A DNA stretch of 64,000 nucleotides from a candidate division TM6 bacterium GW2011_GWF2_28_16 (GCA_001029715.1 CP011212.1:398936-462935); one strand, 5' to 3'; numbered from the stretch's first letter, positions 16,768 to 47,618 are shown. Numbers and translations: made by a program. Notes: generated by a model from the letters alone, not told the origin.

Positions 16768-17640
16768 TTATACTGCAACGGATAATCCGCCTTGGAAGGC
16801 AAGTAATTCTTCTGGGATTTCAGCCTCAGACGAATATTGAGCTCCAGGAATTGCAAGAGATCTGCTTTTTTCGTTTTTACCATCAAGACCAGCTCCTATC
16901 AAAAAATAATTTGCAATTAATAGAAGATAAAAATCTGGACTACTTATTTTTTGATGTTTCTCGTCAACGTCATCTGTGACATTTTTTTCGAGCATATTAA
17001 TAGAGACAAAACTAGTCGCTCCATCCAATAGCGCTCGTTTTTTCATGGCTTCTTGAGTTCGTCCGGTGTCACCAAGATCTTCGAGAGAATAAATTTTTTT
17101 ATCTTTTATTTTAGCTGCGTTCCAAATTTCAAATTTGACCTCTTCACTAAAAGTTGTCTCACCGCTTGAGCTTGTAGCTCTAACTGGCATTGAATTAAGA
17201 CCAGTATCTTCAAGTGAATTTATTTTATCTCCAAATTGTTTTTTTAATAAAATAAGACATTTTTCTTCAAATTTTTCTTTAAACCATTTGGCACCCTCTA
17301 GATTGTAAATAATGAGAGATTGTTCTGCTTTTTGCCTAAACTCTTCAAGAGTTAGATCTTCTTCTCCATCAGATATTTCATTAATAAAGATTTGAATGTA
17401 CCAATTAATTGATTCGTTGAGAATAAATTCTGGAATTAAAGGAGCAAACCATCTGTCTTCGTCAAGAAGTTCTTTAACTTGTTGCTCAATCTTATTTTTT
17501 TCATCATCAGCTAGTTTATGAGGATATTTTCCATTATCTGAAGAATAAGGGGATTTAATTGTTCCCTTCTTTATTTCTAAGTTCAATCTGTTGTTGCTAC
17601 TTTTTTCTTCTTGAGAAGACATAAAGGAATAATATATCAC
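16768..17640 (-). CDS. Hypothetical acidic soluble protein (290 aa)
   Basis: ORF track; no TM and no recognisable motif. Sits 7 nt from the convergent ATPase stop. Confidence 0.5.
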   Translation of the reverse strand: MIYYSFMSSQEEKSSNNRLNLEIKKGTIKSPYSSDNGKYPHKLADDEKNKIEQQVKELLDEDRWFAPLIPEFILNESINWYIQIFINEISDGEEDLTLEEFRQKAEQSLIIYNLEGAKWFKEKFEEKCLILLKKQFGDKINSLEDTGLNSMPVRATSSSGETTFSEEVKFEIWNAAKIKDKKIYSLEDLGDTGRTQEAMKKRALLDGATSFVSINMLEKNVTDDVDEKHQKISSPDFYLLLIANYFLIGAGLDGKNEKSRSLAIPGAQYSSEAEIPEELLAFQGGLSVAV

Positions 17641-17779: not shown

Positions 17780-19996
17780 CTAAGAAATTTGATTAAAAAG
17801 TTGATCAGAAACTTCGCTTAATTTAATTTGTAGCGGAGGACCAGATGGATCAATAGGCTCATGTTTAAAACCAATTAAAGCAATGTTTTCTGAGCTGTTA
17901 TCTTTTTCATTCATGGGGTTCACTGTATTATCAATTCCCAGCATAGTTTCTCTAATTTGCGTTTTAATGGTTTTGACTCTGGATTCATCCCAGTTTCCAG
18001 GATTAATCTTGCCTTCAAGTCTTTTGAGAGAAGACAGGATAATACGTTTAAGGGTTTTATCTTCAAGAGTATCCAAATATTTAAGATCTTGCTGAGCTAA
18101 ATAAAAATGTTTGTTAAGTTTTAATAGAGAATAACCAAATTCTTCTTCAACTTCTGAGTTGATACTCGAACTTGGGTTGTCCCAGTCTTTTGGTTGATAT
18201 GAATATGGTAAGACATAAAGATGGGAGCTATTAGTAACTTCTTTTCGTTGATAGTCTTCCATCTGTTCTATTTCTGTTGTTCTATTTTCTGCAATTGGCT
18301 TAGCTGCAATAGTCGAGTTTTGATAAAGATCGCGATTTTTAATTGCTAATAGATATGAAAAAACTACTCTTTCTATCCAAGCTTTTTCAGTAGGAGCTAA
18401 TTTAGATAAGGTTGGAGTTTCCATCTGTTCATTGATTCCAAAAGTAAACACTCTTTTGCCTAGTTGCAAAGAAACTTGTAAATTGTGAGGGCTGACAGTG
18501 CGCTTGAAAGTAAGTTGTTTCAAGCCAACTTGAAACAATAATTTGTCCTGACCCTGAGACTGATCAAGGTTTACACTAATACCTCTTTTGGAAACAGGGA
18601 ACATTCCACCCCTAGCTTGGTCTTTGAGTTCTGTTAGCGGAGTGGTTTCATTTAAATTTAATTCAGGACGAAGAAAAGCTAAAACAGCTGCAACTTCGGT
18701 TACTTCTAATGGTTTGTTAGATAAATTAAGTAAATGAGGAAGATTGGTTCTAAATTCTGCAAGCGAAGATGGATCTAATTCGTCTAAATTATCTAGAGTA
18801 ATATTTCCTCTCCAAGTCAGAAGAATATTTTCTTGATTATTAACAGTTTTTGAGGGGAGTACAAAACCACCAAAATTGCCTTCTTTTTTTATTAGAAGCA
18901 ATTCTTCTTCCATAATGAATTCAATCAGCTTATTTGCCAAGGGATCATGAGTAAAATTGTCAGATTTTTCACAAAATGCTGTCAGATTTTGTTCTGACCC
19001 TGTCATTTTGGCAAAAGAATCTAAACCAGCCGATCTTACGTTTTTGTTAAAAATGCGGTCATCAGCTAAAGAAATAGGAGGACATTCAAAAACTTTTCTT
19101 AAAATTATTTCTTTGGCTTTTGATTTTTTGAGATTAACCCTCATTTGGGCTTGTCTCTCTTTTCTTCTAGAGCTGACATGAGTAATCGTTAATTTTCCGT
19201 TTTCATCATATTTTCCACGACTATCTACTGCTACATAAGCACTCAGGGCGTCAAATGTTTCCAGAACATACTGAGCCTGACAACGCATTTTATAGTCAGG
19301 GTGATGGAGCCGTGTAAAACTAAGAGCGTCGAACAAATTATAGGAGTTTTCTATTTTGTCGTAACCTAAGTCCTCAAATGTTTCTAAAATTATTAATTGT
19401 TTTTCGCGATCTTTACATTTTAAAATTTCTGAAGAAAGCCGATAAAGATTGCTAATAATTTTTTTGAAAGGGAGATCGTCAATTTTTGGAATGGCCTGCT
19501 CCGGAGTTCCCTTCCTTTTTCTTTTTTTATCAGTTTCGTTTTTTGGATCAAATTCTTCTTGATTAATTGATCCTCTAATTCCATTAATTCGAGATTGAGT
19601 AGCAGCATCTTTTAATAAAGGTGAGACAGCATCAGTGCCTTGATTAAAATACTCAATTTTATCTTTATGTTCTTGAAAAAATTTATCTAAAGTGTGGTCG
19701 AAAATTTGGAAATCAGACATGCCCATATTTGTTGCAAGAATCAAAGCTTCTTGGTATTTAGCACTCAACTTAGAGTTTAGACCATTTATTAGAAAAGCAA
19801 ATTCATCATGGCTGCACCAGTGTTGTTCTTTTTGATCAGAGAGAAGTTCTAAAACCTTATCTAAGATTTTTTCTTCAAATTCTTCTAAAAGAAGATAAGA
19901 ACTTTCTTTAATTCCCGCATAAATTGGCAACAGATCGGAAAATTTTTGTGCCCGCTCAATTTGTTGATAATTTTCTAGTGGCTCACTTTCGCTCAT
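17780..19996 (-). CDS. Hypothetical large soluble protein (738 aa), unknown function
   Basis: ORF track; long uninterrupted frame with non-repetitive composition and a KKRKRKG basic patch. No nucleotide-binding or nuclease motif recognised. Confidence 0.55.
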   Translation of the reverse strand: MSESEPLENYQQIERAQKFSDLLPIYAGIKESSYLLLEEFEEKILDKVLELLSDQKEQHWCSHDEFAFLINGLNSKLSAKYQEALILATNMGMSDFQIFDHTLDKFFQEHKDKIEYFNQGTDAVSPLLKDAATQSRINGIRGSINQEEFDPKNETDKKRKRKGTPEQAIPKIDDLPFKKIISNLYRLSSEILKCKDREKQLIILETFEDLGYDKIENSYNLFDALSFTRLHHPDYKMRCQAQYVLETFDALSAYVAVDSRGKYDENGKLTITHVSSRRKERQAQMRVNLKKSKAKEIILRKVFECPPISLADDRIFNKNVRSAGLDSFAKMTGSEQNLTAFCEKSDNFTHDPLANKLIEFIMEEELLLIKKEGNFGGFVLPSKTVNNQENILLTWRGNITLDNLDELDPSSLAEFRTNLPHLLNLSNKPLEVTEVAAVLAFLRPELNLNETTPLTELKDQARGGMFPVSKRGISVNLDQSQGQDKLLFQVGLKQLTFKRTVSPHNLQVSLQLGKRVFTFGINEQMETPTLSKLAPTEKAWIERVVFSYLLAIKNRDLYQNSTIAAKPIAENRTTEIEQMEDYQRKEVTNSSHLYVLPYSYQPKDWDNPSSSINSEVEEEFGYSLLKLNKHFYLAQQDLKYLDTLEDKTLKRIILSSLKRLEGKINPGNWDESRVKTIKTQIRETMLGIDNTVNPMNEKDNSSENIALIGFKHEPIDPSGPPLQIKLSEVSDQLFNQIS

Positions 19997-20032
19997 AATT
20001 TAGATAAAAATTAATTTAAGGATGTTTATTTG

Positions 20033-20104
20033 TGACCCCACGCAGAATCGAACTGCGGTTACAAGGATGAGAACCTTGTGTCCTAACCACTAGACGATGG
20101 GGCC
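20033..20104 (-). tRNA. tRNA-Glu (anticodon CUC)
   Basis: Reverse complement GGCCCCATCGTCTAGTGGTTAGGACACAAGGTTCTCATCCTTGTAACCGCAGTTCGATTCTGCGTGGGGTCA folds as a cloverleaf. 7-bp acceptor stem, D-arm GTCT/GGAC, anticodon loop TTCTCAT, T-loop TTCGATT. CCA not encoded. Confidence 0.8.
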
Positions 20105-20183
20105 GATCCAGAGATTATACCAAATTTGCCTTGATTTTGTAAACGCTACACTTCTTGTAATTTGGTTCAGTGATAATAAGTTA

Positions 20184-20927
20184 ATGATAATTATTTTATT
20201 TTTCTTAACTTTATTTTTTTCTGTTAGACAAATTGAGGCACAGAGTTTTTCTTATCAATTTATTTTGGCAAATAATTCAATTGATTTAGATTTTTTAAAA
20301 AAGTTAGAATTAAATTTAGAAGAGCAAAAGCCAAAAAATTTTCTCTCTTTTGAATATAAGTTGGAAAAACAAAATGATTTGCCCTCAGATCTTCCTTTAT
20401 TTATTGTTGCTTTTGATAAAGAAGTGCTTTTTTCAGTCGATTCCAGCTTGGCAGATAGTTTATTTCACCAGGTAGAAATAAATTTAACCAATCGAAATGA
20501 TCGAATACCAGTTTTTTATCAAAGCAATTATTTAGATGGTTTTAAGCTCACATTGGAAAATTTAATTTTTATTGAAGAGCCAATTCTTAATAAGGATAAA
20601 ACTTCAATAATTAAAGACCTAAGCGTCATTAGAGAATTAGATCAATCTCTTAGCATTATTTTTTCTCTAGAAGAAACAGAAAAAAGACAACATTCTTTTC
20701 AGCTGATTTGTCTTGATGAAGGAGGCGAAGTTACAAACTCAAATAAATTATTTAAGAATGACGACTTTCTTTGGTCTGACTTTTTTTTTACAAATTCTTT
20801 TTCTAATAAAAAAAATGAATTTATTTTTCACTTGGATAAGCTCGAATGCTCTGGGCTTGTTTATGTACTTACTGACTTTTCTATTCAGTCAGATAAAACT
20901 TCAATTATCAGAGTGGAGGACTTATGA
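20184..20927 (+). CDS. Hypothetical secreted protein (signal peptide; start trimmed to avoid the tRNA)
   Basis: ORF track frame 20097..20927 overlaps the tRNA. The internal Met at 20184 starts MIIILFFLTLFFSVRQIEAQS, which is signal-peptide-like. Confidence 0.45.
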   Translation: MIIILFFLTLFFSVRQIEAQSFSYQFILANNSIDLDFLKKLELNLEEQKPKNFLSFEYKLEKQNDLPSDLPLFIVAFDKEVLFSVDSSLADSLFHQVEINLTNRNDRIPVFYQSNYLDGFKLTLENLIFIEEPILNKDKTSIIKDLSVIRELDQSLSIIFSLEETEKRQHSFQLICLDEGGEVTNSNKLFKNDDFLWSDFFFTNSFSNKKNEFIFHLDKLECSGLVYVLTDFSIQSDKTSIIRVEDL

Positions 20928-21532
20928 AGGAAATTAAATTAAATTGTTTTTCTTCGAATGAATTATGTATAAATTCTTCTTCTCTTGAAAATTTTGTAAT
21001 CAATGATCCAACAGATCAGGAATTTTCTTTGCAAATTGCAAACCATGGCAATAAGGATTGTGAGCTTAATTTATCAACAAAGAATTTCAATGAAGATAGT
21101 TTTTTTGGTCAAGTTGAGCTTTTAATTTCTAGTCAAAATGAATTATTTTTTCGAGATAATTTGGACCAGTTTTTTAAGCAAAAAATAAACCTGAGCTCGA
21201 TTAGGGCTCAATCTTCAAAAACATATTATTTTTATTTAGATTTTCTAAATTTAATAACCAATGAAGAACAATTTTCAGTTAATTTTGACTTGTTGCTTGA
21301 TTTTGTTTGCCATGAGCCAAGTAAATTAGAGGAATTGCCTAATGAAGCTAATGAACTAGAAATAGAAACGCAAGAATTTACTAAGGGAGTGGTTTTATCT
21401 GCTAGTTCTAGTGCGGAGGTGAAACAGAATCTCCCACAAGTTTTTTTGTTTTTCTATTTATTGTCGATCTTGTTTGTCATAGCTTTTTTTGTCATAATTA
21501 AATTCATTAATGGCAAAAATAAGAAAAAGTAA
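20924..21532 (+). CDS. Hypothetical surface protein with C-terminal hydrophobic anchor and basic tail
   Basis: C-terminus ...NLPQVFLFFYLLSILFVIAFFVIIKFINGKNKKK, a hydrophobic helix plus KNKKK resembling a sorting-signal or tail-anchor architecture. 4-nt overlap with the upstream gene. Confidence 0.45.
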   Translation: MKEIKLNCFSSNELCINSSSLENFVINDPTDQEFSLQIANHGNKDCELNLSTKNFNEDSFFGQVELLISSQNELFFRDNLDQFFKQKINLSSIRAQSSKTYYFYLDFLNLITNEEQFSVNFDLLLDFVCHEPSKLEELPNEANELEIETQEFTKGVVLSASSSAEVKQNLPQVFLFFYLLSILFVIAFFVIIKFINGKNKKK

Positions 21533-22430
21533 AAGTAAAAGAAACTTTTGGTTTAAATTGAGTCATTTCTTTAGACCACAAGCTTCGAACAGATATCGTT
21601 CGAAACTCCTTCATCCTCAGTCGATGTTGGTGACATCCTTTATTTTATTGGCATTTTTTGCTCTTTTTAATGCGGTTAGGTTTTTTCCTAATTTAACAGA
21701 TAAAGTTTTAGGTTTTAGCTCAAACATTAGTACTAGTGATTTGCTTGATAAGACCAATCAAGAACGCCAAAGACTAGGCCTATCTAAGCTCGTTTTAAAT
21801 GAAGAGCTCAATCAAGCGGCTTTGGCTAAAGCTCAAGATATGTTCAATGATCAGTATTGGGCTCATGTTGCTCCAGATGGCAAGCAGGCCTGGGATTTTA
21901 TCAAAGAAACAGATTATTCTTATAAATATGCTGGAGAAAACTTAGCCAGAGATTTTAATACTAGCGATGAAGTAGTTGAGGCTTGGATAGCTTCTCCCTC
22001 TCATTATGAAAATTTGACTAATAAAGATTTTACCCAGATGGGTTTAGCGATTGTTAACGGTAATCTTAAGGGTTTCAATACGACTTTGGTTGTGCAATTA
22101 TTTGCTGTGCCCTCATCTGTGGCGATGAAAGATCAGGCCGGTAGTGATTTTTATTTACCAAAGGCTGCTGAAGCAACTTTTCACGAAAATGAGCTAGTGG
22201 CTGGCGAAAAAACTGCCAATAAGGAAATAGTTTTTTCCTCGCTTAATTTTACAAAAACTTTTTTCTTATTAGTAGTTCTTTTGATTATTTTAACCTTAAT
22301 CTATGATGCTTTGATAGCTTCTAGTAGAAAGTATCAGCGTCTAGTTGGACAAAACTTTGCCCATGTTGCTCTTTTTGTTACCGTTGCTTTCTTATTAGTT
22401 TTATTCAAGGGAGGTTCGGTTTTGCCATGA
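21510..22430 (+). CDS. CAP/SCP (PR-1-like) domain membrane protein
   Basis: CAP signatures YWAHVAPDG, AGENLARDF, WIASPSHYENL, flanked by an N-terminal TM and a C-terminal hydrophobic region. Confidence 0.6.
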   Translation: MAKIRKSKSKRNFWFKLSHFFRPQASNRYRSKLLHPQSMLVTSFILLAFFALFNAVRFFPNLTDKVLGFSSNISTSDLLDKTNQERQRLGLSKLVLNEELNQAALAKAQDMFNDQYWAHVAPDGKQAWDFIKETDYSYKYAGENLARDFNTSDEVVEAWIASPSHYENLTNKDFTQMGLAIVNGNLKGFNTTLVVQLFAVPSSVAMKDQAGSDFYLPKAAEATFHENELVAGEKTANKEIVFSSLNFTKTFFLLVVLLIILTLIYDALIASSRKYQRLVGQNFAHVALFVTVAFLLVLFKGGSVLP

Positions 22431-22684
22431 AAAGTTTTCTGAAAAAAAATCAAATTGCTTATCTTTTTCTCATGATTTTATTGGTAGCTTTTATTTATTT
22501 ATTTATGAGAGCTTGGCCAAATGGACAAATGCAACGTTATATTGCGATTGCTTTTGGAGTTATTTACTTTTTTTGGGGAGTAATTACTCATACCAAGAGT
22601 AAAAGAATTAATAGCGAAATTGTTTTTGAGTATTTATCAGTTTCTATGCTGGCTATACTTGTAATCGTTTTGATTACTTTATAA
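22427..22684 (+). CDS. Small membrane protein (85 aa, 2-3 TM)
   Basis: ORF track; hydrophobic; 4-nt overlap with the CAP gene. Confidence 0.4.
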   Translation: MKSFLKKNQIAYLFLMILLVAFIYLFMRAWPNGQMQRYIAIAFGVIYFFWGVITHTKSKRINSEIVFEYLSVSMLAILVIVLITL

Positions 22685-22749
22685 TAATGGCTTGCTTTTG
22701 AAAAAGGCTCGTGTTAGTTTTGACTAGTAAAAAAGAAAGGTTGTTTATT

Positions 22750-23496
22750 ATGGCAAGTAAAGAAATGAAGGGGATTATTTTGGCCGGTGGAGCAGGAACT
22801 CGTCTTTATCCGTTAACCAAAGTAACTAGCAAACAACTATTACCAGTTTATAACAAACCAATGATCCAATATCCGCTTGAGACTTTAATAAGAGCGGGAA
22901 TCAAAGATATTTTGATTATTGTTGCTCCAGATCACGCTGGTGATTTTCTCAAATGTTTGGGCAGTGGAAAAGAATATGGTTGCCATTTCACTTATGAAAT
23001 TCAAGATAAACCAGAGGGAATTGCTCAAGCTTTTTTAATTGGTCAAGATTTTATTGATCACGACAATGTTACTTTGATTTTAGGTGATAATCTCTATGAA
23101 GACGATTTCTCGGAAGCAATCAAAACTTTTAAGAGTGGCGGGCGTATTTTTGCCAAAAAAGTTGTTGACCCACAGCGTTTTGGTGTAGTTGAGTTCAATG
23201 AAAATAATAAAGCAATCTCAATTGAAGAAAAGCCAAAGCATCCAAAATCTGAATATTCAGTAACTGGTCTTTATATTTATGATTCAACTGTAATTGAAAA
23301 AATTAAGAGTCTTTCTTTTTCAGACAGAGGTGAGCTGGAAATTACAGATCTCAATAATCTCTATCTCAAAGAAGATAAGCTCGATGTAGCCTTTGTTAAA
23401 GGCAAGTGGTTTGATACTGGAACTTTTGAATCGATGCATGAGGCTATTACTTTTGCGAGAGATCGCCACCTAGCCAAAGAAGCTCGCTCACTGTAA
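22750..23496 (+). CDS. rmlA: Glucose-1-phosphate thymidylyltransferase (short form) / sugar-1-P nucleotidyltransferase
   Basis: N-terminal GIILAGGAGTRLYPLTKVTSKQLLPVYNKPMIQYPL is the RmlA signature. Start chosen at MASKEMKG after the AGAAAGG RBS; the ORF-track frame opens at 22711. Confidence 0.7.
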   Translation: MASKEMKGIILAGGAGTRLYPLTKVTSKQLLPVYNKPMIQYPLETLIRAGIKDILIIVAPDHAGDFLKCLGSGKEYGCHFTYEIQDKPEGIAQAFLIGQDFIDHDNVTLILGDNLYEDDFSEAIKTFKSGGRIFAKKVVDPQRFGVVEFNENNKAISIEEKPKHPKSEYSVTGLYIYDSTVIEKIKSLSFSDRGELEITDLNNLYLKEDKLDVAFVKGKWFDTGTFESMHEAITFARDRHLAKEARSL

Positions 23497-23505
23497 AATA
23501 ATTTT

Positions 23506-24342
23506 ATGAAAAGATTGGTCTTTTTTTTCTTGTCTTTTTTTCTATTGCTTTCACCTGCTCGTGCTCAAGAAGTTGGGTCAACTGACAGCTCTAGTCTAAA
23601 GACTGATGGAATTTGGCAAAAAGAACGTCTTGATGAAGAAATTTCTACTTTAAAAGCAAGTTATCAATCTCAATTAGAAAATTATCTCTATCAAGATAAA
23701 CTATATAGAATTGCCTACGATCAACATCAGGAATTACAAACTTTATCTTCTATAGAAGACCTAACCCAAAAAGCCAAAAGCTTAGGAATTTATAGAGATG
23801 AAGTTTTAATTAGTTATTTAAATTTATTGAGGCTAAATTTAATTGCCACTGAGGGGATTGAACTTTCCCTTAAGAATGAATCTTTGGCTAAATTAGAAAC
23901 GACACTTGATTACATAGGTATCCATCAAGAAAATTTAAAGAACATTAATGATAGAGATCAGGTTGTGGCTTCCTTGATGACTTTTACGACTGATCAAAAA
24001 AATCTCAATAATTTAGCAAATGAAGTTCTAGTTTTATTATCAGTTGGCAACTTACAGGTGATTTATGATAAATCAGTGGTTCTTAAGGGAGAAATTGATC
24101 TTTATTTAGAACAAAAAGGCACTTCAACTTTACCATCCATAGATCGAGCTAGTTATGAAACGAATCGTAGTTTAGATTCTGCCAAGTTGAAGCTAGACAC
24201 TTTTTGGACTGATGTTATCGAGCATAGAACTAGCAATTGGTATTTAGCTAAATTTTATGATCAATTACCAAAAACTTTAAATCCTATTTATGTCAATCTT
24301 TCACAGTCAATTTCTTATTTAAGTGAATTACTAAGTATTTAA
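23506..24342 (+). CDS. Hypothetical secreted protein (278 aa)
   Basis: Cleavable-looking signal peptide MKRLVFFFLSFFLLLSPARAQE, then a helix-rich body. Confidence 0.5.
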   Translation: MKRLVFFFLSFFLLLSPARAQEVGSTDSSSLKTDGIWQKERLDEEISTLKASYQSQLENYLYQDKLYRIAYDQHQELQTLSSIEDLTQKAKSLGIYRDEVLISYLNLLRLNLIATEGIELSLKNESLAKLETTLDYIGIHQENLKNINDRDQVVASLMTFTTDQKNLNNLANEVLVLLSVGNLQVIYDKSVVLKGEIDLYLEQKGTSTLPSIDRASYETNRSLDSAKLKLDTFWTDVIEHRTSNWYLAKFYDQLPKTLNPIYVNLSQSISYLSELLSI

Positions 24343-24346
24343 AAAT

Positions 24347-24706
24347 ATGTTTTCAAGAAAAGAATTTAATCAAACCAGTCAAACTGAATTCGTCGAAGAT
24401 GGAGCTTTCATAGAAAGCTCTGCACATAAAAAATTCAACTTAAGAGACTTAAAGAATAATAAGAATTTGTTACCTTTTTATATCTTAATTGCTGTCCTAT
24501 TCTTCTTCTTTTTATTAATGATTATTAAAATAATTGGCAACAAGCAGACACCAGAGGCAGAAATGATAAAAAAAGTTGAAGAAAAAATTGAATTAGATCC
24601 GCTCAGTTTGCGAGCTAATGAGTTAAGAGCAAATCTCAAAGATCATGATCCAACTAAGCAAACCCTACCATTTCCCCAGGTTGATTTAGAATTTAATATC
24701 AATTAG
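24347..24706 (+). CDS. Hypothetical single-pass membrane protein (119 aa)
   Basis: ORF track; one TM helix (LLPFYILIAVLFFFFLLMIIKII). Confidence 0.4.
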   Translation: MFSRKEFNQTSQTEFVEDGAFIESSAHKKFNLRDLKNNKNLLPFYILIAVLFFFFLLMIIKIIGNKQTPEAEMIKKVEEKIELDPLSLRANELRANLKDHDPTKQTLPFPQVDLEFNIN

Positions 24707-24726
24707 AATGCCAAAAAAAGTAAACT

Positions 24727-25281
24727 ATGCCAATACATAAAGACTCATACTTAGAAAAATTTGAAAAAACACTAAACCACGCTCAAGATGGTTTTGCTAC
24801 TTTGCGCACTGGCAGAGCCAGCGCACAGCTTTTAGATAGTATTTTTGTTGAAGCCTATGGATCTAGAATGGCTTTGCATGAAGTAGCTTCCATCTCTGCT
24901 CCAGACACTCAGCTCTTAGTGGTTAAGCCTTGGGATAAAAATCTTTTTCCAGCCATAGAAAAAGCAATTCAGCAAGCTCAATTAAATTTAAATCCAATTA
25001 TTGATGGAGATATTATTAGAATTGCTGTGCCTTCCCTCACTCAGGAAAGAAGACAAGAAATGGTCAAAATTCTTAGTCAAAAAGAAGAAGAGGCTAAAGT
25101 GATGTTCCGTAGTGTGCGAGCTGAAATACGCAAAGATATAGAGAAACAAGAAGGGGAAGCGGGCGTTAGCGAAGATGATATTAAATCTGAAGTTATAGAA
25201 TTGGACGAGACTGTTAAAGAATACATTACTAATCTAGAAGAAATTTCTAAACAAAAAGAAAAAGAGCTTCTAAACATTTAG
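24727..25281 (+). CDS. frr: Ribosome recycling factor
   Basis: 184 aa; RRF signature blocks TLRTGRASAQLLDSI, VKPWDKNL, IRIAVPSLTQERRQEMVK. Confidence 0.85.
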   Translation: MPIHKDSYLEKFEKTLNHAQDGFATLRTGRASAQLLDSIFVEAYGSRMALHEVASISAPDTQLLVVKPWDKNLFPAIEKAIQQAQLNLNPIIDGDIIRIAVPSLTQERRQEMVKILSQKEEEAKVMFRSVRAEIRKDIEKQEGEAGVSEDDIKSEVIELDETVKEYITNLEEISKQKEKELLNI

Positions 25282-25292
25282 CTTAGGTTTTT

Positions 25293-26405
25293 ATGGCAGC
25301 TTTGATTTTTATTCTTATTTTGTCTTTTTTAGTGATCATTCATGAGGCTGGACATTTTCTTTTTGCCAGAAAAAATCATATTAAAGTCAGAGAATTTGGT
25401 TTAGGCTATCCACCCAGAATTTTAAAATTATTTTATTGGAGGGGGACTCTTTTTTCACTTAATTTAATTCCTTTTGGTGGTTTTGTGCAGATGGATGGTG
25501 AAAATGGTCCAGAGGGAGATGAAAATAATTCTGCAGATTCTTTTTATGAGAAATCAATCAGAGCTCGCTTGCAAGTTATTTTAGCAGGAGTGACTGTTAA
25601 CTTTATTTTTGGAATTATAGCTTTTGCCATTGTTTTTTATCGCTTAGGTATTCCTACGGCTTTAGATGGCCAAGCAAGAATTCAGGATATAGCTGACAAT
25701 TCTCCAGCGATGGTGGCTGGTTTAGTGTCAAATACTAATATTTTGGCTTTTAAAACTGTCGATCAGTGGGTAGAAATGAATAGCATTTCTGAAGTTCAAG
25801 ATTTTAGTGCGGCTCATCTGGGCGAAACACTTGAAATTAGAACTTCTTTACTTTGTGACCAGGAATTTTGTACCGATGAATATAGAGAGAGCTCTATTTA
25901 TTTAAGAACAGTTGAGGAAACACCGACTAATGAAGGTGCGATGGGAATTGCTTTTAGCGATACGATTTTCAAAAGTTATCCTTGGTACTTAATGCCTTTC
26001 ATGACTATCTTCCATGCTTTTAAGCAATCAATCGCTTTAGCAGTATTAATATTGCAATCTCTTTGGCAGTTAGTTGTAGATTTATTTGCAGGAAGAGGTG
26101 TTCAGCAAGAAGTAGCTGGTCCAATTGGAATCATTGATCAAGCTAACACTTATGGGTTTTTTGAGGGCGGTTTTTTGAGCATTCTCAATTTTGCAGCATT
26201 ATTGTCTATTAATTTAGGAATTATGAATTTATTGCCAATTCCTGCGCTAGATGGAGGAAGAGCAATTTTGATAATTTTAGAAAAATTTTTCAAGAGAAAA
26301 CACATTGATAAAATTGCGCATTATCTAAATTATTTTGGTTATATTTCCCTACTTGCTCTAATGATCATTGTTTCCTTTAATGATATAAGAAACATTTTTA
26401 AATAA
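25293..26405 (+). CDS. rseP: RIP zinc metalloprotease RseP (site-2 protease)
   Basis: HEAGHFLFAR (HExxH) in TM1; PDZ-like middle region; NLLPIPALDGGR (LDG motif) in the C-terminal TM. Confidence 0.8.
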   Translation: MAALIFILILSFLVIIHEAGHFLFARKNHIKVREFGLGYPPRILKLFYWRGTLFSLNLIPFGGFVQMDGENGPEGDENNSADSFYEKSIRARLQVILAGVTVNFIFGIIAFAIVFYRLGIPTALDGQARIQDIADNSPAMVAGLVSNTNILAFKTVDQWVEMNSISEVQDFSAAHLGETLEIRTSLLCDQEFCTDEYRESSIYLRTVEETPTNEGAMGIAFSDTIFKSYPWYLMPFMTIFHAFKQSIALAVLILQSLWQLVVDLFAGRGVQQEVAGPIGIIDQANTYGFFEGGFLSILNFAALLSINLGIMNLLPIPALDGGRAILIILEKFFKRKHIDKIAHYLNYFGYISLLALMIIVSFNDIRNIFK

Positions 26406-46560: not shown

Positions 46561-46741
46561 AATATTTTTATAAAATTACCGCTTGCGCTGATTCTCAATT
46601 CTTGCTACTTTAATTATTGCTGTGGAACATAGTGAAAATCTATGACTGTGCCGCAACGGTAATTCCTTTTTAAGGATTAGTCCGATCTTCAGCAAAAGAG
46701 AAATCTTGACGAGCATCGAGGCTGTATATTTTACTGTCGAT

Positions 46742-46764
46742 GCTCCCTAAAGGGGAGCTTTTTT
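46742..46764 (+). terminator. Intrinsic terminator (gctccc-taaa-gggagc + U6) preceded by a competing hairpin
   Basis: Seen directly. An upstream 9-bp hairpin gagcatcga...tcgatgctc (46711-46745) shares nucleotides with the terminator 5' arm. Confidence 0.45.
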
Positions 46765-46840
46765 GTTCAAAGAACCACGGCTATTAATATTATTAATAGT
46801 TATCTTCGTGGTTAATTTCTGCGAAGTAAGAAAGGTTTTT

Positions 46841-47542
46841 ATGAACACAAAAGCTATCGAAATGGCAGGCAGTATTGGAATTGAGCTAAGCCAAATAAAT
46901 TCAGAATGGACTTCTCTTCAAAGCATTGATTCTTCTTCAATATTAGAGAATGCAGGTAAGGAAGCAGGCATAGAAGATCGTCAGTGGCAAAAATTGCTTT
47001 CTCAAGCTGGTTCTTGGGTGATTGATGGTTTGGATAAAAAGATATTTGAAATACAAAATAAAGTAATTGAGCAAACAACTGCCATTGAGTTAAGAAAAAT
47101 GTTTGGTGTTCCACTTTCATTGCTAGCAATGCCTGTTTTTGTAGAGTTGGCAGGAATGGAATTGGCAGCGAAAATTGATTTGAAAAAAGAAGCCATGATG
47201 ACCTCTCAAATTTGGGAACAAATTAATAACAGAGTTTTATATATGGTTCAACTTTTCTTAGCAGAGCAAATCAATTTGGTCGAAGATGAAGAAAAAGCTC
47301 ATCAGAGTGCTTTGAGTGAATCAAAGAAAGAAGCCGACGGAGTCTCTGGTTTATCAGAAACGGTGGGAGCTGTGGAGAATCAATTTGCTTCAAAGCTGGA
47401 AAAACTAAAAGATAAGAAAGAATCTTTAATAAGTGTTTTCAAAAAGATTGGTGGAGATTTAGTTAATACTGTTGAGAGAGCTTTTGAGACTACTGTTTTT
47501 AGTGCGAGTAGGCAAAGTACTGCTGTTACGGTGATTCAATAA
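46841..47542 (+). CDS. Hypothetical protein (start trimmed to MNTKAIEMAGS after the AAGAAAGG RBS)
   Basis: ORF track frame 46763..47542. Its first 26 codons overlap the terminator hairpin, so the downstream Met is preferred. Confidence 0.4.
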   Translation: MNTKAIEMAGSIGIELSQINSEWTSLQSIDSSSILENAGKEAGIEDRQWQKLLSQAGSWVIDGLDKKIFEIQNKVIEQTTAIELRKMFGVPLSLLAMPVFVELAGMELAAKIDLKKEAMMTSQIWEQINNRVLYMVQLFLAEQINLVEDEEKAHQSALSESKKEADGVSGLSETVGAVENQFASKLEKLKDKKESLISVFKKIGGDLVNTVERAFETTVFSASRQSTAVTVIQ

Positions 47543-47547
47543 ACTTG

Positions 47548-47618
47548 ATCCCGGGCCAGGATTTGAACCTAGAATAATTGATTCAGAGTCAATTGTGATG
47601 CCATTTCACTACCCGGGA
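47548..47618 (-). tRNA. tRNA-Gln (anticodon CUG)
   Basis: Reverse complement TCCCGGGTAGTGAAATGGCATCACAATTGACTCTGAATCAATTATTCTAGGTTCAAATCCTGGCCCGGGA-T. U1-A72, D-arm GTGA/TCAC, anticodon loop CTCTGAA, T-loop TTCAAAT. Confidence 0.8.

What the first reader, a model, noticed from the sequence alone, without database searches (positions are those of the whole stretch)
20033..22684. tRNA-Glu followed by a four-gene cluster of small secreted/anchored proteins including a CAP/SCP-domain protein
Downstream of the tRNA, four tightly overlapping genes (4-nt ATGA-type overlaps) encode a signal-peptide protein and a protein ending in a hydrophobic helix plus KNKKK tail. That tail has the architecture of a cell-wall sorting or tail-anchor signal, although the preceding motif is NLPQV rather than LPxTG. 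The other two encode a membrane-flanked CAP/PR-1-like domain protein and an 85-aa membrane peptide. CAP-domain proteins are typically secreted and interact with host lipids, sterols and proteins. A surface-exposed CAP protein in a tiny-genome bacterium suggests a host- or partner-interaction module.
Basis: partly seen in the sequence, partly recalled or inferred. Interest (0 to 1): 0.55.

Follow-up and report, generated by a model that had tools for sequence, protein, structure and literature searches.

The report
Membrane-tethered CAP protein envelope gene block
The four genes are real, but they are two separate things: an ancient pair found in nearly all relatives of this tiny-genome groundwater bacterium (a membrane-tethered CAP-domain protein and its 85-residue partner), which looks like cell-envelope housekeeping, and two fast-evolving surface proteins in a variable slot beside a conserved tRNA gene. 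Nothing supports sortase anchoring.

Summary
The window comes from Candidatus Pacebacteria GW2011_GWF2_38_9 (Patescibacteria/CPR). All four ORFs and the tRNA-Glu exist, and PF00188 is confirmed (E=1e-19).

Corrections to the observation:
- The tRNA is on the minus strand with its own promoter, so it diverges from the cluster.
- ORF1 starts at 20184.
- The ORF2/CAP overlap is 23 nt, not 4.
- ORF2 has no signal peptide, and its NLPQV motif is not conserved, so it does not meet the features of a sortase substrate.

Comparison of 84 related loci shows a different conserved unit: CAP-3TM protein, 85-aa 3-TM partner (adjacent in 79/81 loci), often an RmlA-like gene, then two orphan envelope proteins (70/77), near frr and rseP.

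ORF1 and ORF2 evolve about twice as fast. They fill a variable slot between tRNA-Glu(CTC) and CAP. In more distant relatives this slot holds a SipW-type signal peptidase plus large surface proteins, and in one locus it is empty.

Best reading: the YkwD-type CAP domain sits at the organism's own membrane–wall interface, as does DalA, the one characterised bacterial YkwD-type protein found in the literature search. ORF1 and ORF2 are lineage-specific surface proteins. The host-interaction idea is unsupported for CAP and open for ORF1/ORF2. Moderate interest; new variant of a known kind.

The parts
20032..20104 (-). tRNA-Glu(CTC). It forms the conserved left boundary of the locus and is transcribed away from the cluster.
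   Evidence: ARAGORN and Rfam RF00005 at 59.7 bits. The same tRNA lies upstream of CAP in 41 of 68 related loci, on the minus strand in 39 of them.
20114..20143 (-). Promoter-like site for the tRNA (TTTACA, 18-nt spacer, TATAAT preceded by TG).
   Evidence: Consensus scan, 11 of 12 matches, the best site in 19800-25400. This is a consensus match only.
20184..20927 (+). ORF1, 247 aa. A secreted protein with a signal peptide (residues 1-19, ..IEA|QS) and two tandem beta-sandwich domains. It evolves fast.
   Evidence: The start is set by homologues. Hydropathy supports the signal peptide. AF2 model pLDDT 69.7, with only generic sandwich/Ig matches in the PDB. There are no Pfam or NCBIfam hits. 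hhalign against the SipW-adjacent upstream proteins of distant loci gives Prob 90.8%, E=1.2e-6 over 59 columns. Identity to L011 is 49%, where CAP is 77%.
20924..21532 (+). ORF2, 202 aa. It has no signal peptide. Residues 1-130 form a beta-sandwich with 4 conserved Cys, residues 133-173 are a disordered linker, residues 174-192 are a TM helix, and the tail is KFINGKNKKK. It is translationally coupled to ORF1 (ATGA overlap, GGAGG 7 nt upstream).
   Evidence: The family is small: 65 clusters among 1.84 billion representatives. The domain is in no Pfam or NCBIfam model. Remote members have signal peptides and co-occur with DUF11, fn3 and LTD domains.
21510..22430 (+). ORF3, 306 aa, a polytopic membrane protein. 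It has a basic cytoplasmic N-terminus with an invariant F.P...N..R...LHP motif, TM1 (38-56), an extracytoplasmic YkwD-type CAP domain, a variable linker, and a TM2/TM3 hairpin carrying invariant Y265 D266, N282 and H285.
   Evidence: PF00188 E=1.1e-19, and 15 of 15 family members hit it. TIGR02909 YkwD E=7e-26 and DalA model E=3.5e-15, both below their cut-offs. 3812 homologues with full-length conservation. Topology. Closest solved structures are 4IFA (E=1e-9) and BB0689/4D53.
21744..22097 (+). CAP/SCP domain (residues 79-196 of ORF3), with invariant H119, E143 (within GENLARDF) and H165.
   Evidence: Two His plus an acidic residue is the conserved CAP site described in PMC5842191.
22427..22684 (+). 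ORF4, 85 aa, a 3-TM partner of the CAP protein. Invariant residues are Y12, L15, Y47, W50, G51, H55, E68 and Y69. It is related to the C-terminal three helices of Pfam DUF5656.
   Evidence: It lies immediately downstream of CAP on the same strand in 79 of 81 loci, down to 35% CAP identity. Conservation. DUF5656 is hit by 9 of 19 family members, best E=1.3e-5, profile positions 166-242 of 242. The window copy itself gives no hit.
22750..23496 (+). RmlA-like nucleotidyltransferase (sugar-1-phosphate NTP transferase), a facultative insert in the module.
   Evidence: PF00483 E=1.4e-65. It is present between ORF4 and U278 in 58 of 79 loci. The start is uncertain (22711, 22750 or 22765) because gene callers differ.
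23506..24342 (+). U278, an orphan secreted protein with a signal peptide. It is part of the conserved module.
   Evidence: Present downstream of CAP/ORF4 in 70 of 77 loci. No consistent Pfam hit. Conservation.
24347..24706 (+). U119, an orphan bitopic membrane protein. It has a cytoplasmic NQT.F motif, one TM helix, and an external C-terminal motif DP....LPFP.VD.
   Evidence: Present in 70 of 77 loci. No consistent Pfam hit. Conservation and hydropathy.
24727..26405 (+). frr (RRF, 24727-25281) and rseP-like M50 protease (25293-26405), the housekeeping right flank.
   Evidence: Pfam assignments on the identical contig. They follow the module in most loci, at variable distance.

Best explanation
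The region is the start of a long co-directional run of cell-envelope genes in a Pacebacteria (Microgenomates, CPR) genome. It holds two units of different evolutionary age.

Unit A (ancient, near-universal in the group): ORF3 is a three-pass membrane protein. It displays a YkwD-type CAP domain on the outer face of the cytoplasmic membrane, held by a TM helix on each side. It is always paired with ORF4, an 85-aa three-helix protein. The conserved polar residues in the ORF3 hairpin and in ORF4 suggest that the two form one membrane complex (inferred). Two orphan envelope proteins (U278 secreted, U119 bitopic) and often an RmlA-like enzyme belong to the same conserved block, next to frr and rseP. 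The most likely role (inferred) is housekeeping at the organism's own membrane–wall interface: binding or scaffolding of peptidoglycan or a wall polymer. This is what has been shown for DalA, the only characterised bacterial YkwD-type CAP protein found in the searches. Secreted host manipulation is less likely.

Unit B (young, variable): ORF1 is a secreted two-domain beta-sandwich protein. ORF2 is a beta-sandwich on a disordered stalk with a C-terminal TM helix and polybasic stop-transfer tail. The two are translationally coupled surface proteins that evolve about twice as fast as unit A. They occupy a variable slot between the conserved tRNA-Glu(CTC) and CAP. In more distant relatives the slot holds a SipW-type signal peptidase plus large surface proteins, or nothing. 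ORF2 most likely acts as the membrane anchor or stalk of a surface structure that includes ORF1 (inferred). Its tail may be a relic of a sortase-type sorting signal that now serves only as a membrane anchor. That relic idea rests on only 3 of about 65 family clusters.
For: Shown:
- Identity of the organism.
- PF00188 above its threshold, in 15 of 15 family members.
- Invariant H119, E143 and H165.
- Topology by hydropathy and the positive-inside rule.
- ORF4 adjacent to CAP in 79/81 loci, U278 and U119 in 70/77, the NTP transferase in 58/79.
- At least 460 species representatives encode a CAP relative.
- Envelope and housekeeping neighbours: RRF, M50, DUF3048, SecDF.
- No terminator-like site in 19800-25400.
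- Identity to L011: CAP 77%, ORF4 75%, NTP transferase 91%, against ORF1 49% and ORF2 41%.
- ORF1 and ORF2 always overlap stop-to-start, usually with a GGAG-like stretch just upstream.
- ORF1/ORF2 orthologues occur mainly in the close clade (15/17 and 14/17) and rarely beyond it.
- SipW-type peptidase upstream of CAP in 24/61 loci, with TIGR02228 above its cut-off in 6 of 6 genes tested.
- ORF1 is related to the SipW-adjacent proteins (hhalign Prob 90.8%).
- tRNA-Glu(CTC) is a conserved boundary (41/68 loci). Slot length ranges from 127 nt to about 4.1 kb.
- Remote ORF2 homologues have signal peptides and surface-protein domains.

From the literature:
- RSP1200/DalA is a YkwD/CAP protein (PMC5442454).
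- DalA binds peptidoglycan and is needed for normal division (PMC10470522).
- The DalA model matches the same stretch as PF00188.
Against: - No biochemical function is known for any bacterial CAP domain beyond DalA. BB0689 yielded none (PMC5842191).
- The similarity to DalA is domain-level only (56 bits against a 200-bit cut-off), and the anchoring differs (TM helices versus a lipoprotein).
- Conserved synteny in slowly rearranging small genomes could be inherited rather than functional.
- The ORF3–ORF4 complex and the ORF1–ORF2 complex are inferred; no multimer prediction was possible.
- ORF2 lacks a signal peptide, so its outward orientation is not explained.
- Signal peptides and topology were not checked with dedicated predictors.
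- CPR bacteria are often epibionts, so even a conserved surface module could contact a host.
Confidence: 0.55

Rival explanations
1. The four genes form one host- or partner-interaction module: a surface-exposed CAP protein binds host lipids or proteins, and ORF2 is attached to the wall by a sortase that recognises a non-canonical motif (NLPQV).
For: - The CAP domain is predicted to be extracytoplasmic.
- ORF2's tail has the form of a sorting signal, and a few remote homologues carry LAPTG, IPNTG or LSDTG.
- A Microgenomates genome encodes a sortase (PMC7143001).
- ORF1/ORF2 evolve fast, as host-contact proteins often do.
Against: - ORF2 and about 45 clusters of its subfamily lack a signal peptide.
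- The pentapeptide position is not conserved.
- No LPXTG-anchor or other sorting-domain model hits ORF2.
- The window has no sortase.
- CAP is tethered at both ends, evolves slowly, is near-universal, and is linked to housekeeping envelope genes.
- CAP/ORF4 occur without ORF1/ORF2 in most loci.
Confidence: 0.15
2. A SipW/TasA-type fibre system. ORF1, and perhaps ORF2, are TasA/camelysin-like subunits processed by a SipW-type peptidase encoded elsewhere in the genome. They assemble into surface fibres anchored near the CAP module.
For: - SipW-type peptidase genes sit directly upstream of ORF1-like genes in many distant loci.
- ORF1 is related to those proteins.
- After the signal peptide, their N-termini (AYFTTFETLLNNTVSV, AMFVPSETIRNNTLSF) resemble the mature N-terminus of TasA (AFNDIKSKDATFASGTLDL). 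This resemblance is by eye only.
- The predicted folds are beta-sandwiches.
Against: - hhalign of the ORF2 family against TasA gives Prob 0.2%.
- No Pfam hit of any kind, and so none to the camelysin/M73 family, falls on the ORF1-like or ORF2-like domains of any member.
- TasA is not among the top PDB fold matches.
- No SipW homologue was found in this window.
- ORF2 has no signal peptide to be cleaved.
Confidence: 0.12
3. ORF2 is a tail-anchored protein whose beta-sandwich domain stays in the cytoplasm. Alternatively, ORF1-ORF2 is made as one secreted, anchored protein through a -1 ribosomal frameshift at the overlapping stop/start.
For: - ORF2 has no signal peptide and a single TM helix 10 residues from the C-terminus.
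- ORF2 is in the -1 frame relative to ORF1 in all 13 loci where the two overlap stop-to-start, with a GGAG-like stretch a few nucleotides upstream in most.
- A fusion would restore the canonical layout of signal peptide, domains and anchor.
Against: - The polybasic tail after the helix argues for a C-in, N-out orientation.
- The four Cys are nearly invariant across the family, including in homologues that carry signal peptides.
- No conserved slippery heptamer is present, and ATGA or TGATG overlaps with a Shine-Dalgarno sequence are ordinary translational coupling.
- ORF2 has its own conserved Met-Lys-Glu start.
Confidence: 0.1
4. ORF1/ORF2, and the orphan U738 on the other side of the tRNA, are cargo of a mobile element or prophage remnant integrated at the tRNA-Glu gene.
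For: - The genes are next to a tRNA.
- G+C is slightly lower in 20001-22000 (0.307 against a window average of about 0.34).
- The content of the slot varies between relatives.
- U738 has no homologue in related loci.
Against: - ORF1 and ORF2 have no match in 50,697 phage records.
- No integrase, recombinase or phage family is recorded for the called genes within about 10 kb on either side. Repeats were not searched.
- The slot consistently holds the same kinds of surface-protein genes, with or without sipW, in the same orientation as CAP across deep divergence. This points to diversification in place.
Confidence: 0.05

Closest known systems
DalA (RSP_1200) of Rhodobacter (Cereibacter) sphaeroides, a divisome-associated YkwD/CAP lipoprotein
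   Same: It has a YkwD-type CAP domain: the NCBIfam DalA model matches residues 76-183 (E=3.5e-15), the same stretch as PF00188. The domain is extracytoplasmic and tethered to a membrane of the producing cell. DalA is shown to bind the cell's own peptidoglycan and to be needed for normal division.
   Different: The score is far below the family cut-off (56 against 200 bits). DalA is an outer-membrane lipoprotein of a diderm, whereas this protein is anchored by TM helices on both sides of the domain in what is probably a monoderm. DalA has no ORF4-like partner. No functional data exist for the protein here.
YkwD family (TIGR02909) and the solved bacterial CAP proteins 4IFA and BB0689 (4D53)
   Same: The domain is the same short bacterial version of CAP, with the conserved N..R, GEN and S..H motifs.
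   Different: The score is below the TIGR02909 cut-off (90.6 against 171 bits). Those proteins are soluble or lipid- or wall-bound, with no flanking TM helices. Their functions are unknown (PMC5842191).
Clostridioides difficile Cwp9/Cwp11/Cwp12 (CAP domain fused to cell-wall-binding repeats)
   Same: A bacterial CAP domain is held at the producing cell's own envelope rather than released (PMC5842191).
   Different: Anchoring there is by CWB2 wall-binding repeats, here by TM helices. Homology outside the CAP domain was not tested.
LPXTG cell-wall sorting signal of sortase substrates
   Same: ORF2 ends with a hydrophobic helix plus a basic tail. Three remote homologues have LAPTG, IPNTG or LSDTG before such a tail, together with an N-terminal signal peptide.
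   Different: ORF2 has no signal peptide, no conserved pentapeptide and no model hit, and the window has no sortase.
The tapA-sipW-tasA operon of Bacillus subtilis (a dedicated ER/archaeal-type signal peptidase next to its secreted substrates)
   Same: In 24 of 61 related loci a SipW-type peptidase gene (TIGR02228 above its cut-off) lies directly upstream of secreted beta-sandwich proteins related to ORF1.
   Different: There is no detectable sequence or fold relationship to TasA. The window itself has no sipW.
Pfam DUF5656 (uncharacterised membrane protein family)
   Same: ORF4 family members match the last three helices of the profile (positions 166-242 of 242). Nine of 19 members hit, and one scores above the gathering threshold.
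   Different: ORF4 covers only the C-terminal third of the profile. The window copy gives no hit. DUF5656 has no known function, and no paper in the library mentions it.

Membership tests
CAP/SCP superfamily (PF00188) | Match to the family HMM above the gathering threshold | tested here: met
   71.9 bits against a 21.1-bit cut-off, E=1.1e-19, profile positions 1-115 of 117. All 15 of 15 family members hit.
CAP/SCP superfamily (PF00188) | Conserved site of two His plus an acidic residue | tested here: met
   H119, E143 and H165 are invariant in 15 diverse members. The site is as described in PMC5842191. Mapping residues onto the canonical tetrad was done from memory of GAPR-1; on that mapping the fourth position is Ser162.
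CAP/SCP superfamily (PF00188) | Alpha-beta-alpha sandwich fold | not tested
YkwD family (TIGR02909) | Score above the curated cut-off | tested here: not met
   90.6 bits against a 171-bit cut-off. The protein is YkwD-like, not a member of that subfamily.
DalA (NF052539) | Equivalog score; lipoprotein signal peptide | tested here: not met
   56.3 bits against a 200-bit cut-off. The N-terminus is a basic cytoplasmic tail plus a TM helix, and the protein contains no Cys at all, so it has no lipobox.
Sortase substrate (LPXTG sorting signal), tested on ORF2 | N-terminal Sec signal peptide | tested here: not met
   The maximum 12-mer hydropathy near the N-terminus is 0.8 for the 97%-identical P0121, whose first 30 residues equal ORF2's. 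ORF2 starts at the position of the mature N-terminus of homologues that do have signal peptides.
Sortase substrate (LPXTG sorting signal), tested on ORF2 | Conserved LPXTG-type pentapeptide just before the helix | tested here: not met
   NLPQV aligns with NPPQV, NLPRI, NLLEM, NYPWI, NSFWI and NQKQT. There is no Thr-Gly. No sorting-domain model hits at E<=1.
Sortase substrate (LPXTG sorting signal), tested on ORF2 | C-terminal hydrophobic helix plus positively charged tail | tested here: met
   Residues 174-192 (hydropathy 3.06) followed by KFINGKNKKK. The feature is conserved across the subfamily.
Sortase substrate (LPXTG sorting signal), tested on ORF2 | Cognate sortase in the genome | not testable with these tools
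   Only 64 kb of a contig of about 853 kb is available. Within the window there is no SrtA-like hit and no TLxTC motif in a long ORF.
TasA/camelysin (SipW-dependent secreted proteins) | Sequence or profile homology to TasA or Peptidase_M73 | tested here: not met
   hhalign of the ORF2 family against TasA gives Prob 0.2% (the TasA sequence was verified). No Pfam hit falls on the ORF1-like or ORF2-like domains of any member. TasA is not among the top 50 PDB fold matches.
TasA/camelysin (SipW-dependent secreted proteins) | Adjacent SipW-type signal peptidase | tested here: not met
   The window has none. One is present in 24 of 61 related loci.
DUF5656 (PF18900), tested on ORF4 | Match to the family HMM | tested here: inconclusive
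   The window ORF4 gives no hit at E<=1. Nine of 19 orthologues hit the C-terminal 77 profile positions, and one is above the gathering threshold (25.1 against 23.3 bits).

The most novel reading that the evidence does not exclude
The stretch from tRNA-Glu to U119 may be an undescribed, lineage-wide surface-organising locus of Microgenomates.
- Its fixed part would be a membrane platform: the CAP-3TM protein, the DUF5656-like partner and two orphan envelope proteins.
- Next to the platform lies a hypervariable cassette of surface proteins, ancestrally processed by SipW. This cassette would set cell-surface identity, such as host or partner attachment or phage evasion.
- In this clade the cassette protein ORF2 would reach the surface without any signal peptide. 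That implies an unconventional insertion route, or a programmed -1 fusion with ORF1.
Probability: 0.2. Interest if true: 0.65.

Novelty: new variant of a known kind. Interest (0 to 1): 0.4.

Why it matters
Bacterial CAP-domain proteins are widespread, yet the searches here found only one with a known function (DalA). This family offers a very large natural sample, at least 460 species. It has a fixed architecture, a fixed membrane partner and fixed neighbours, in organisms whose cell envelope and host attachment are largely unknown. If the module proves to be an envelope or division scaffold, it would extend the DalA precedent to the Patescibacteria. The variable slot bounded by the tRNA would also give a defined place to look for the surface proteins that distinguish closely related ultrasmall bacteria. 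As a single locus, however, the finding is an ordinary conserved gene block with no demonstrated function.

Tried and rejected
- Sortase anchoring of ORF2: rejected (no signal peptide, no conserved motif, no model hit).
- TasA/camelysin homology of ORF1/ORF2, suspected from motifs and the SipW context: not supported by hhalign, Pfam or fold search.
- ORF1 and ORF2 as paralogues: rejected (hhalign Prob 0.3%).
- The CAP C-terminal hairpin plus ORF4 as a split DUF5656: no DUF5656 hit in any CAP protein.
- Functional clues for U278 and U119 from weak Pfam hits pooled across family members: none. For ORF4, a profile search of PDB sequences also found nothing.
- Phage origin of ORF1/ORF2: no match.
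- Literature searches for DUF5656, and for SipW or CAP domains in Patescibacteria, found nothing relevant.
- The 276-aa version of ORF1 starting at 20097: rejected, because it overlaps the tRNA and its promoter and is not supported by homologues.

Full report
**Source and observation.** The CAP protein is 100% identical to UT13_C0001G0428 of Candidatus Pacebacteria bacterium GW2011_GWF2_38_9, a groundwater member of the Patescibacteria/CPR. The same DNA occurs on several metagenome contigs. tRNA-Glu(CTC) lies at 20032-20104. Four co-directional ORFs end at 20927, 21532, 22430 and 22684. All four have homologues in other genomes, so they are genes and not chance ORFs.

Five details need correcting.
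1. The tRNA is on the minus strand. The best promoter-like site of the region (TTTACA-18-TATAAT with TG, 20143-20114) sits directly upstream of it on that strand. The cluster therefore diverges from the tRNA.
2. The first ATG of ORF1 (20097) lies inside the tRNA. Eight of the nine homologues found start at the Met at 20184, which opens a conserved hydrophobic signal peptide ending IEA|QS. The exception, P0130, carries the same extended call.
3. The ORF1/2 and ORF3/4 junctions are ATGA overlaps, but ORF2 and ORF3 overlap by 23 nt.
4. ORF2 has no N-terminal signal peptide.
5. NLPQV is not conserved among ORF2 orthologues.

**The CAP protein.** PF00188 is matched at E=1.1e-19 (71.9 bits, residues 79-196), and by all 15 diverse family members tested. 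NCBIfam places the domain nearest the YkwD family (E=7e-26) and the DalA model (E=3.5e-15), both below their cut-offs. The closest solved structures are 4IFA and Borrelia BB0689.

The family is large: 3812 hits in the homologue search, and at least 460 GTDB species representatives in the genome scan. It is conserved over its full length down to about 35% identity. The conserved features are:
- a Lys/Arg-rich cytoplasmic N-terminus with an invariant F.P...N..R...LHP motif;
- TM1;
- the CAP core, with invariant H119, E143 (within GENLARDF) and H165;
- a linker of variable length;
- a TM2/TM3 hairpin with invariant Y265, D266, N282 and H285.

Hydropathy and charge distribution place the CAP domain outside, tied to the membrane on both sides. 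The protein is therefore not a released factor.

**What is conserved around it.** I collected 84 distinct related loci. I searched their ORFs iteratively with each window protein. The results were:
- ORF4 follows CAP directly, on the same strand, with a gap of -10 to +50 nt, in 79 of 81 loci that have enough flank.
- The two orphan proteins downstream follow in 70 of 77 loci. U278 (23506-24342) has a signal peptide. U119 (24347-24706) is bitopic.
- An RmlA-like nucleotidyltransferase lies between ORF4 and U278 in 58 of 79 loci.
- frr and an rseP-like M50 protease come next, at variable distance.

On the identical contig the run continues with DUF3048 and secDF. No terminator-like site occurs in 19800-25400.

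ORF4 has invariant Y12, L15, Y47, W50, G51, H55, E68 and Y69. Nine of 19 orthologues match the last three helices of Pfam DUF5656, with a best E of 1.3e-5. U278 and U119 match no family consistently. The conserved unit is therefore CAP-ORF4-(NTP transferase)-U278-U119.

**ORF1 and ORF2.** Both families are small. Each has 8-9 homologues in the indexed search. For ORF2, the exhaustive profile search found 65 clusters among 1.84 billion representatives. Neither protein matches any Pfam or NCBIfam model.

The AF2 models show the following:
- ORF1: two tandem beta-sandwich domains (pLDDT 69.7).
- ORF2: an N-terminal beta-sandwich (pLDDT about 90 for most of residues 1-130), then a disordered stalk (133-173), then a C-terminal helix.

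PDB fold matches for both are weak and generic.

The two proteins evolve about twice as fast as their neighbours. Against L011, ORF1 is 49% and ORF2 41% identical, while CAP is 77%, ORF4 75% and the NTP transferase 91%. In another relative, CAP is 97% and ORF2 79% identical. I judged these two to come from one genome because both list the same longest-contig length.

In all 13 loci of the clade where the junction is clear, ORF2's ATG overlaps ORF1's stop, and most have a GGAG-like stretch just upstream. This indicates translational coupling. Clear orthologues are confined to loci with CAP identity of about 50% or more (15/17 and 14/17). They are sporadic beyond that.

**The slot and its boundary.** tRNA-Glu(CTC) lies upstream of CAP in 41 of 68 loci scanned, on the minus strand in 39 of them. 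These include loci with only 35-40% CAP identity. By subtracting coordinates, the distance between the tRNA and CAP ranges from 127 nt (L067, no gene) to about 4.1 kb (L069).

In 24 of 61 loci with enough upstream sequence, the slot contains an archaeal/ER-type (SipW-type) signal peptidase I gene. All six such genes tested scored above the TIGR02228 cut-off. In L046 the peptidase is fused to a large LTD/fn3 surface protein. The gene that follows the peptidase is usually a secreted protein related to ORF1 (hhalign Prob 90.8%, E=1.2e-6 over the LSF.Y.L...E..GFD.P.F.V core).

Remote ORF2 homologues carry signal peptides and are combined with DUF11, fn3 or LTD domains. Three of them have LAPTG, IPNTG or LSDTG before the terminal helix.

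The window itself has no SipW-type gene and no sortase-like gene. ORF1 and ORF2 have no phage matches. The slot therefore looks like a site where surface-protein genes diversify in place, not like an integrated element.

**Interpretation.** The CAP/ORF4 pair is near-universal and slow-evolving. It is fixed to its own membrane and sits among envelope and housekeeping genes. The one bacterial YkwD-type CAP protein with a known role that the searches found is DalA (RSP1200) of R. sphaeroides. It binds the cell's own peptidoglycan, localises to the septum and is needed for normal division (PMC5442454, PMC10470522). Other prokaryotic CAP domains remain uncharacterised (PMC5842191).

I therefore favour a role at the organism's own membrane–wall interface, with ORF4 as an in-membrane partner. 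This is inferred from strict adjacency and from the conserved polar residues in both proteins. I read ORF1/ORF2 as a coupled pair of lineage-specific surface proteins, with ORF2 as the membrane-anchored stalk.

The sortase idea fails three of its defining features. ORF2's tail may be an evolutionary relic of such a signal, but that rests on only three remote homologues. The TasA idea, which the SipW context suggested, was tested and not supported.

**What remains unexplained.**
- How the ORF2 N-domain would cross the membrane without a signal peptide. It keeps the four Cys that are nearly invariant in the family, and it is followed by a positive-inside tail. Ordinary coupling is the plain reading of the overlap, but a -1 frameshift fusion with ORF1 cannot be excluded.
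- What the conserved polar cluster in the ORF3/ORF4 helices does.
- What binds the invariant cytoplasmic motif of the CAP protein.

**Verdict.** The sortase idea, the four genes as one module, and CAP as a host factor do not.

The locus is a new variant of a known kind. It is a membrane-tethered YkwD-type CAP protein with an obligate small partner, in a conserved envelope block, next to a variable surface-protein slot. No paper in the searchable library describes it. Interest is moderate (0.4).

Noticed in passing
window 46597-46756 (+), with ORF 46763-47542 and tRNA-Gln 47547-47618 (-): An AdoCbl (B12) riboswitch (RF01482, 55.6 bits, above the gathering score) sits directly upstream of a 259-aa ORF that matches no NCBIfam model. 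A minus-strand tRNA-Gln(CTG) follows. The identity of the B12-regulated gene in this reduced genome is not known.
   Followed up: partly
window 17780-19996 (-): A 738-aa protein on the far side of the tRNA has no Pfam or NCBIfam hit. It has no homologue in any related locus except the identical contigs, not even in relatives with 77% CAP identity. The left flank of the tRNA is therefore also variable.
   Followed up: partly
window 21510-21532: The last 7 sense codons and the stop of ORF2 (..INGKNKKK*) and the first 7-8 codons of the CAP gene (MAKIRKSK..) are read from the same A-rich 23 nt in two frames. The CAP start has no Shine-Dalgarno-like sequence. The overlap (22 nt to more than 40 nt) is kept in the close clade.
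   Followed up: partly
ORF2 family, 12-25 residues before the C-terminal helix (window about 21390-21410): A recurrent VL(S/G/A)A or VLG motif appears (VVLSASSS here; VLAAN, VLGAS, ILGVS, VLGIELAPTG in others). It precedes the terminal helix across the family, including the members with LPXTG-like motifs. Its meaning is unknown.
   Followed up: no
L046:1427-4591: A SipW-type signal peptidase domain (TIGR02228, 98 bits) is fused in one 1054-aa ORF to a surface protein with LTD and fn3 domains. It lies directly upstream of an ORF2-like gene and CAP.
   Followed up: partly
L067:2208-2408: Here tRNA-Glu(CTC) lies only 127 nt upstream of the CAP gene, so the variable slot is empty. This shows that CAP/ORF4 do not need ORF1/ORF2-type genes next to them.
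   Followed up: partly
database records: The protein identical to ORF1 is named under 'candidate division TM6 bacterium GW2011_GWF2_28_16', while the CAP protein is named under 'Candidatus Pacebacteria bacterium GW2011_GWF2_38_9'. Many GTDB genome records with this Patescibacteria synteny are titled 'uncultured Pseudomonadales bacterium'. These are probably labelling errors in public records.
   Followed up: no
window 16768-17640 (-): A 290-aa ORF whose C-terminal half weakly matches hypoxanthine phosphoribosyltransferase (TIGR01203, E=6e-8, far below its cut-off). Its N-terminal half matched nothing.
   Followed up: no
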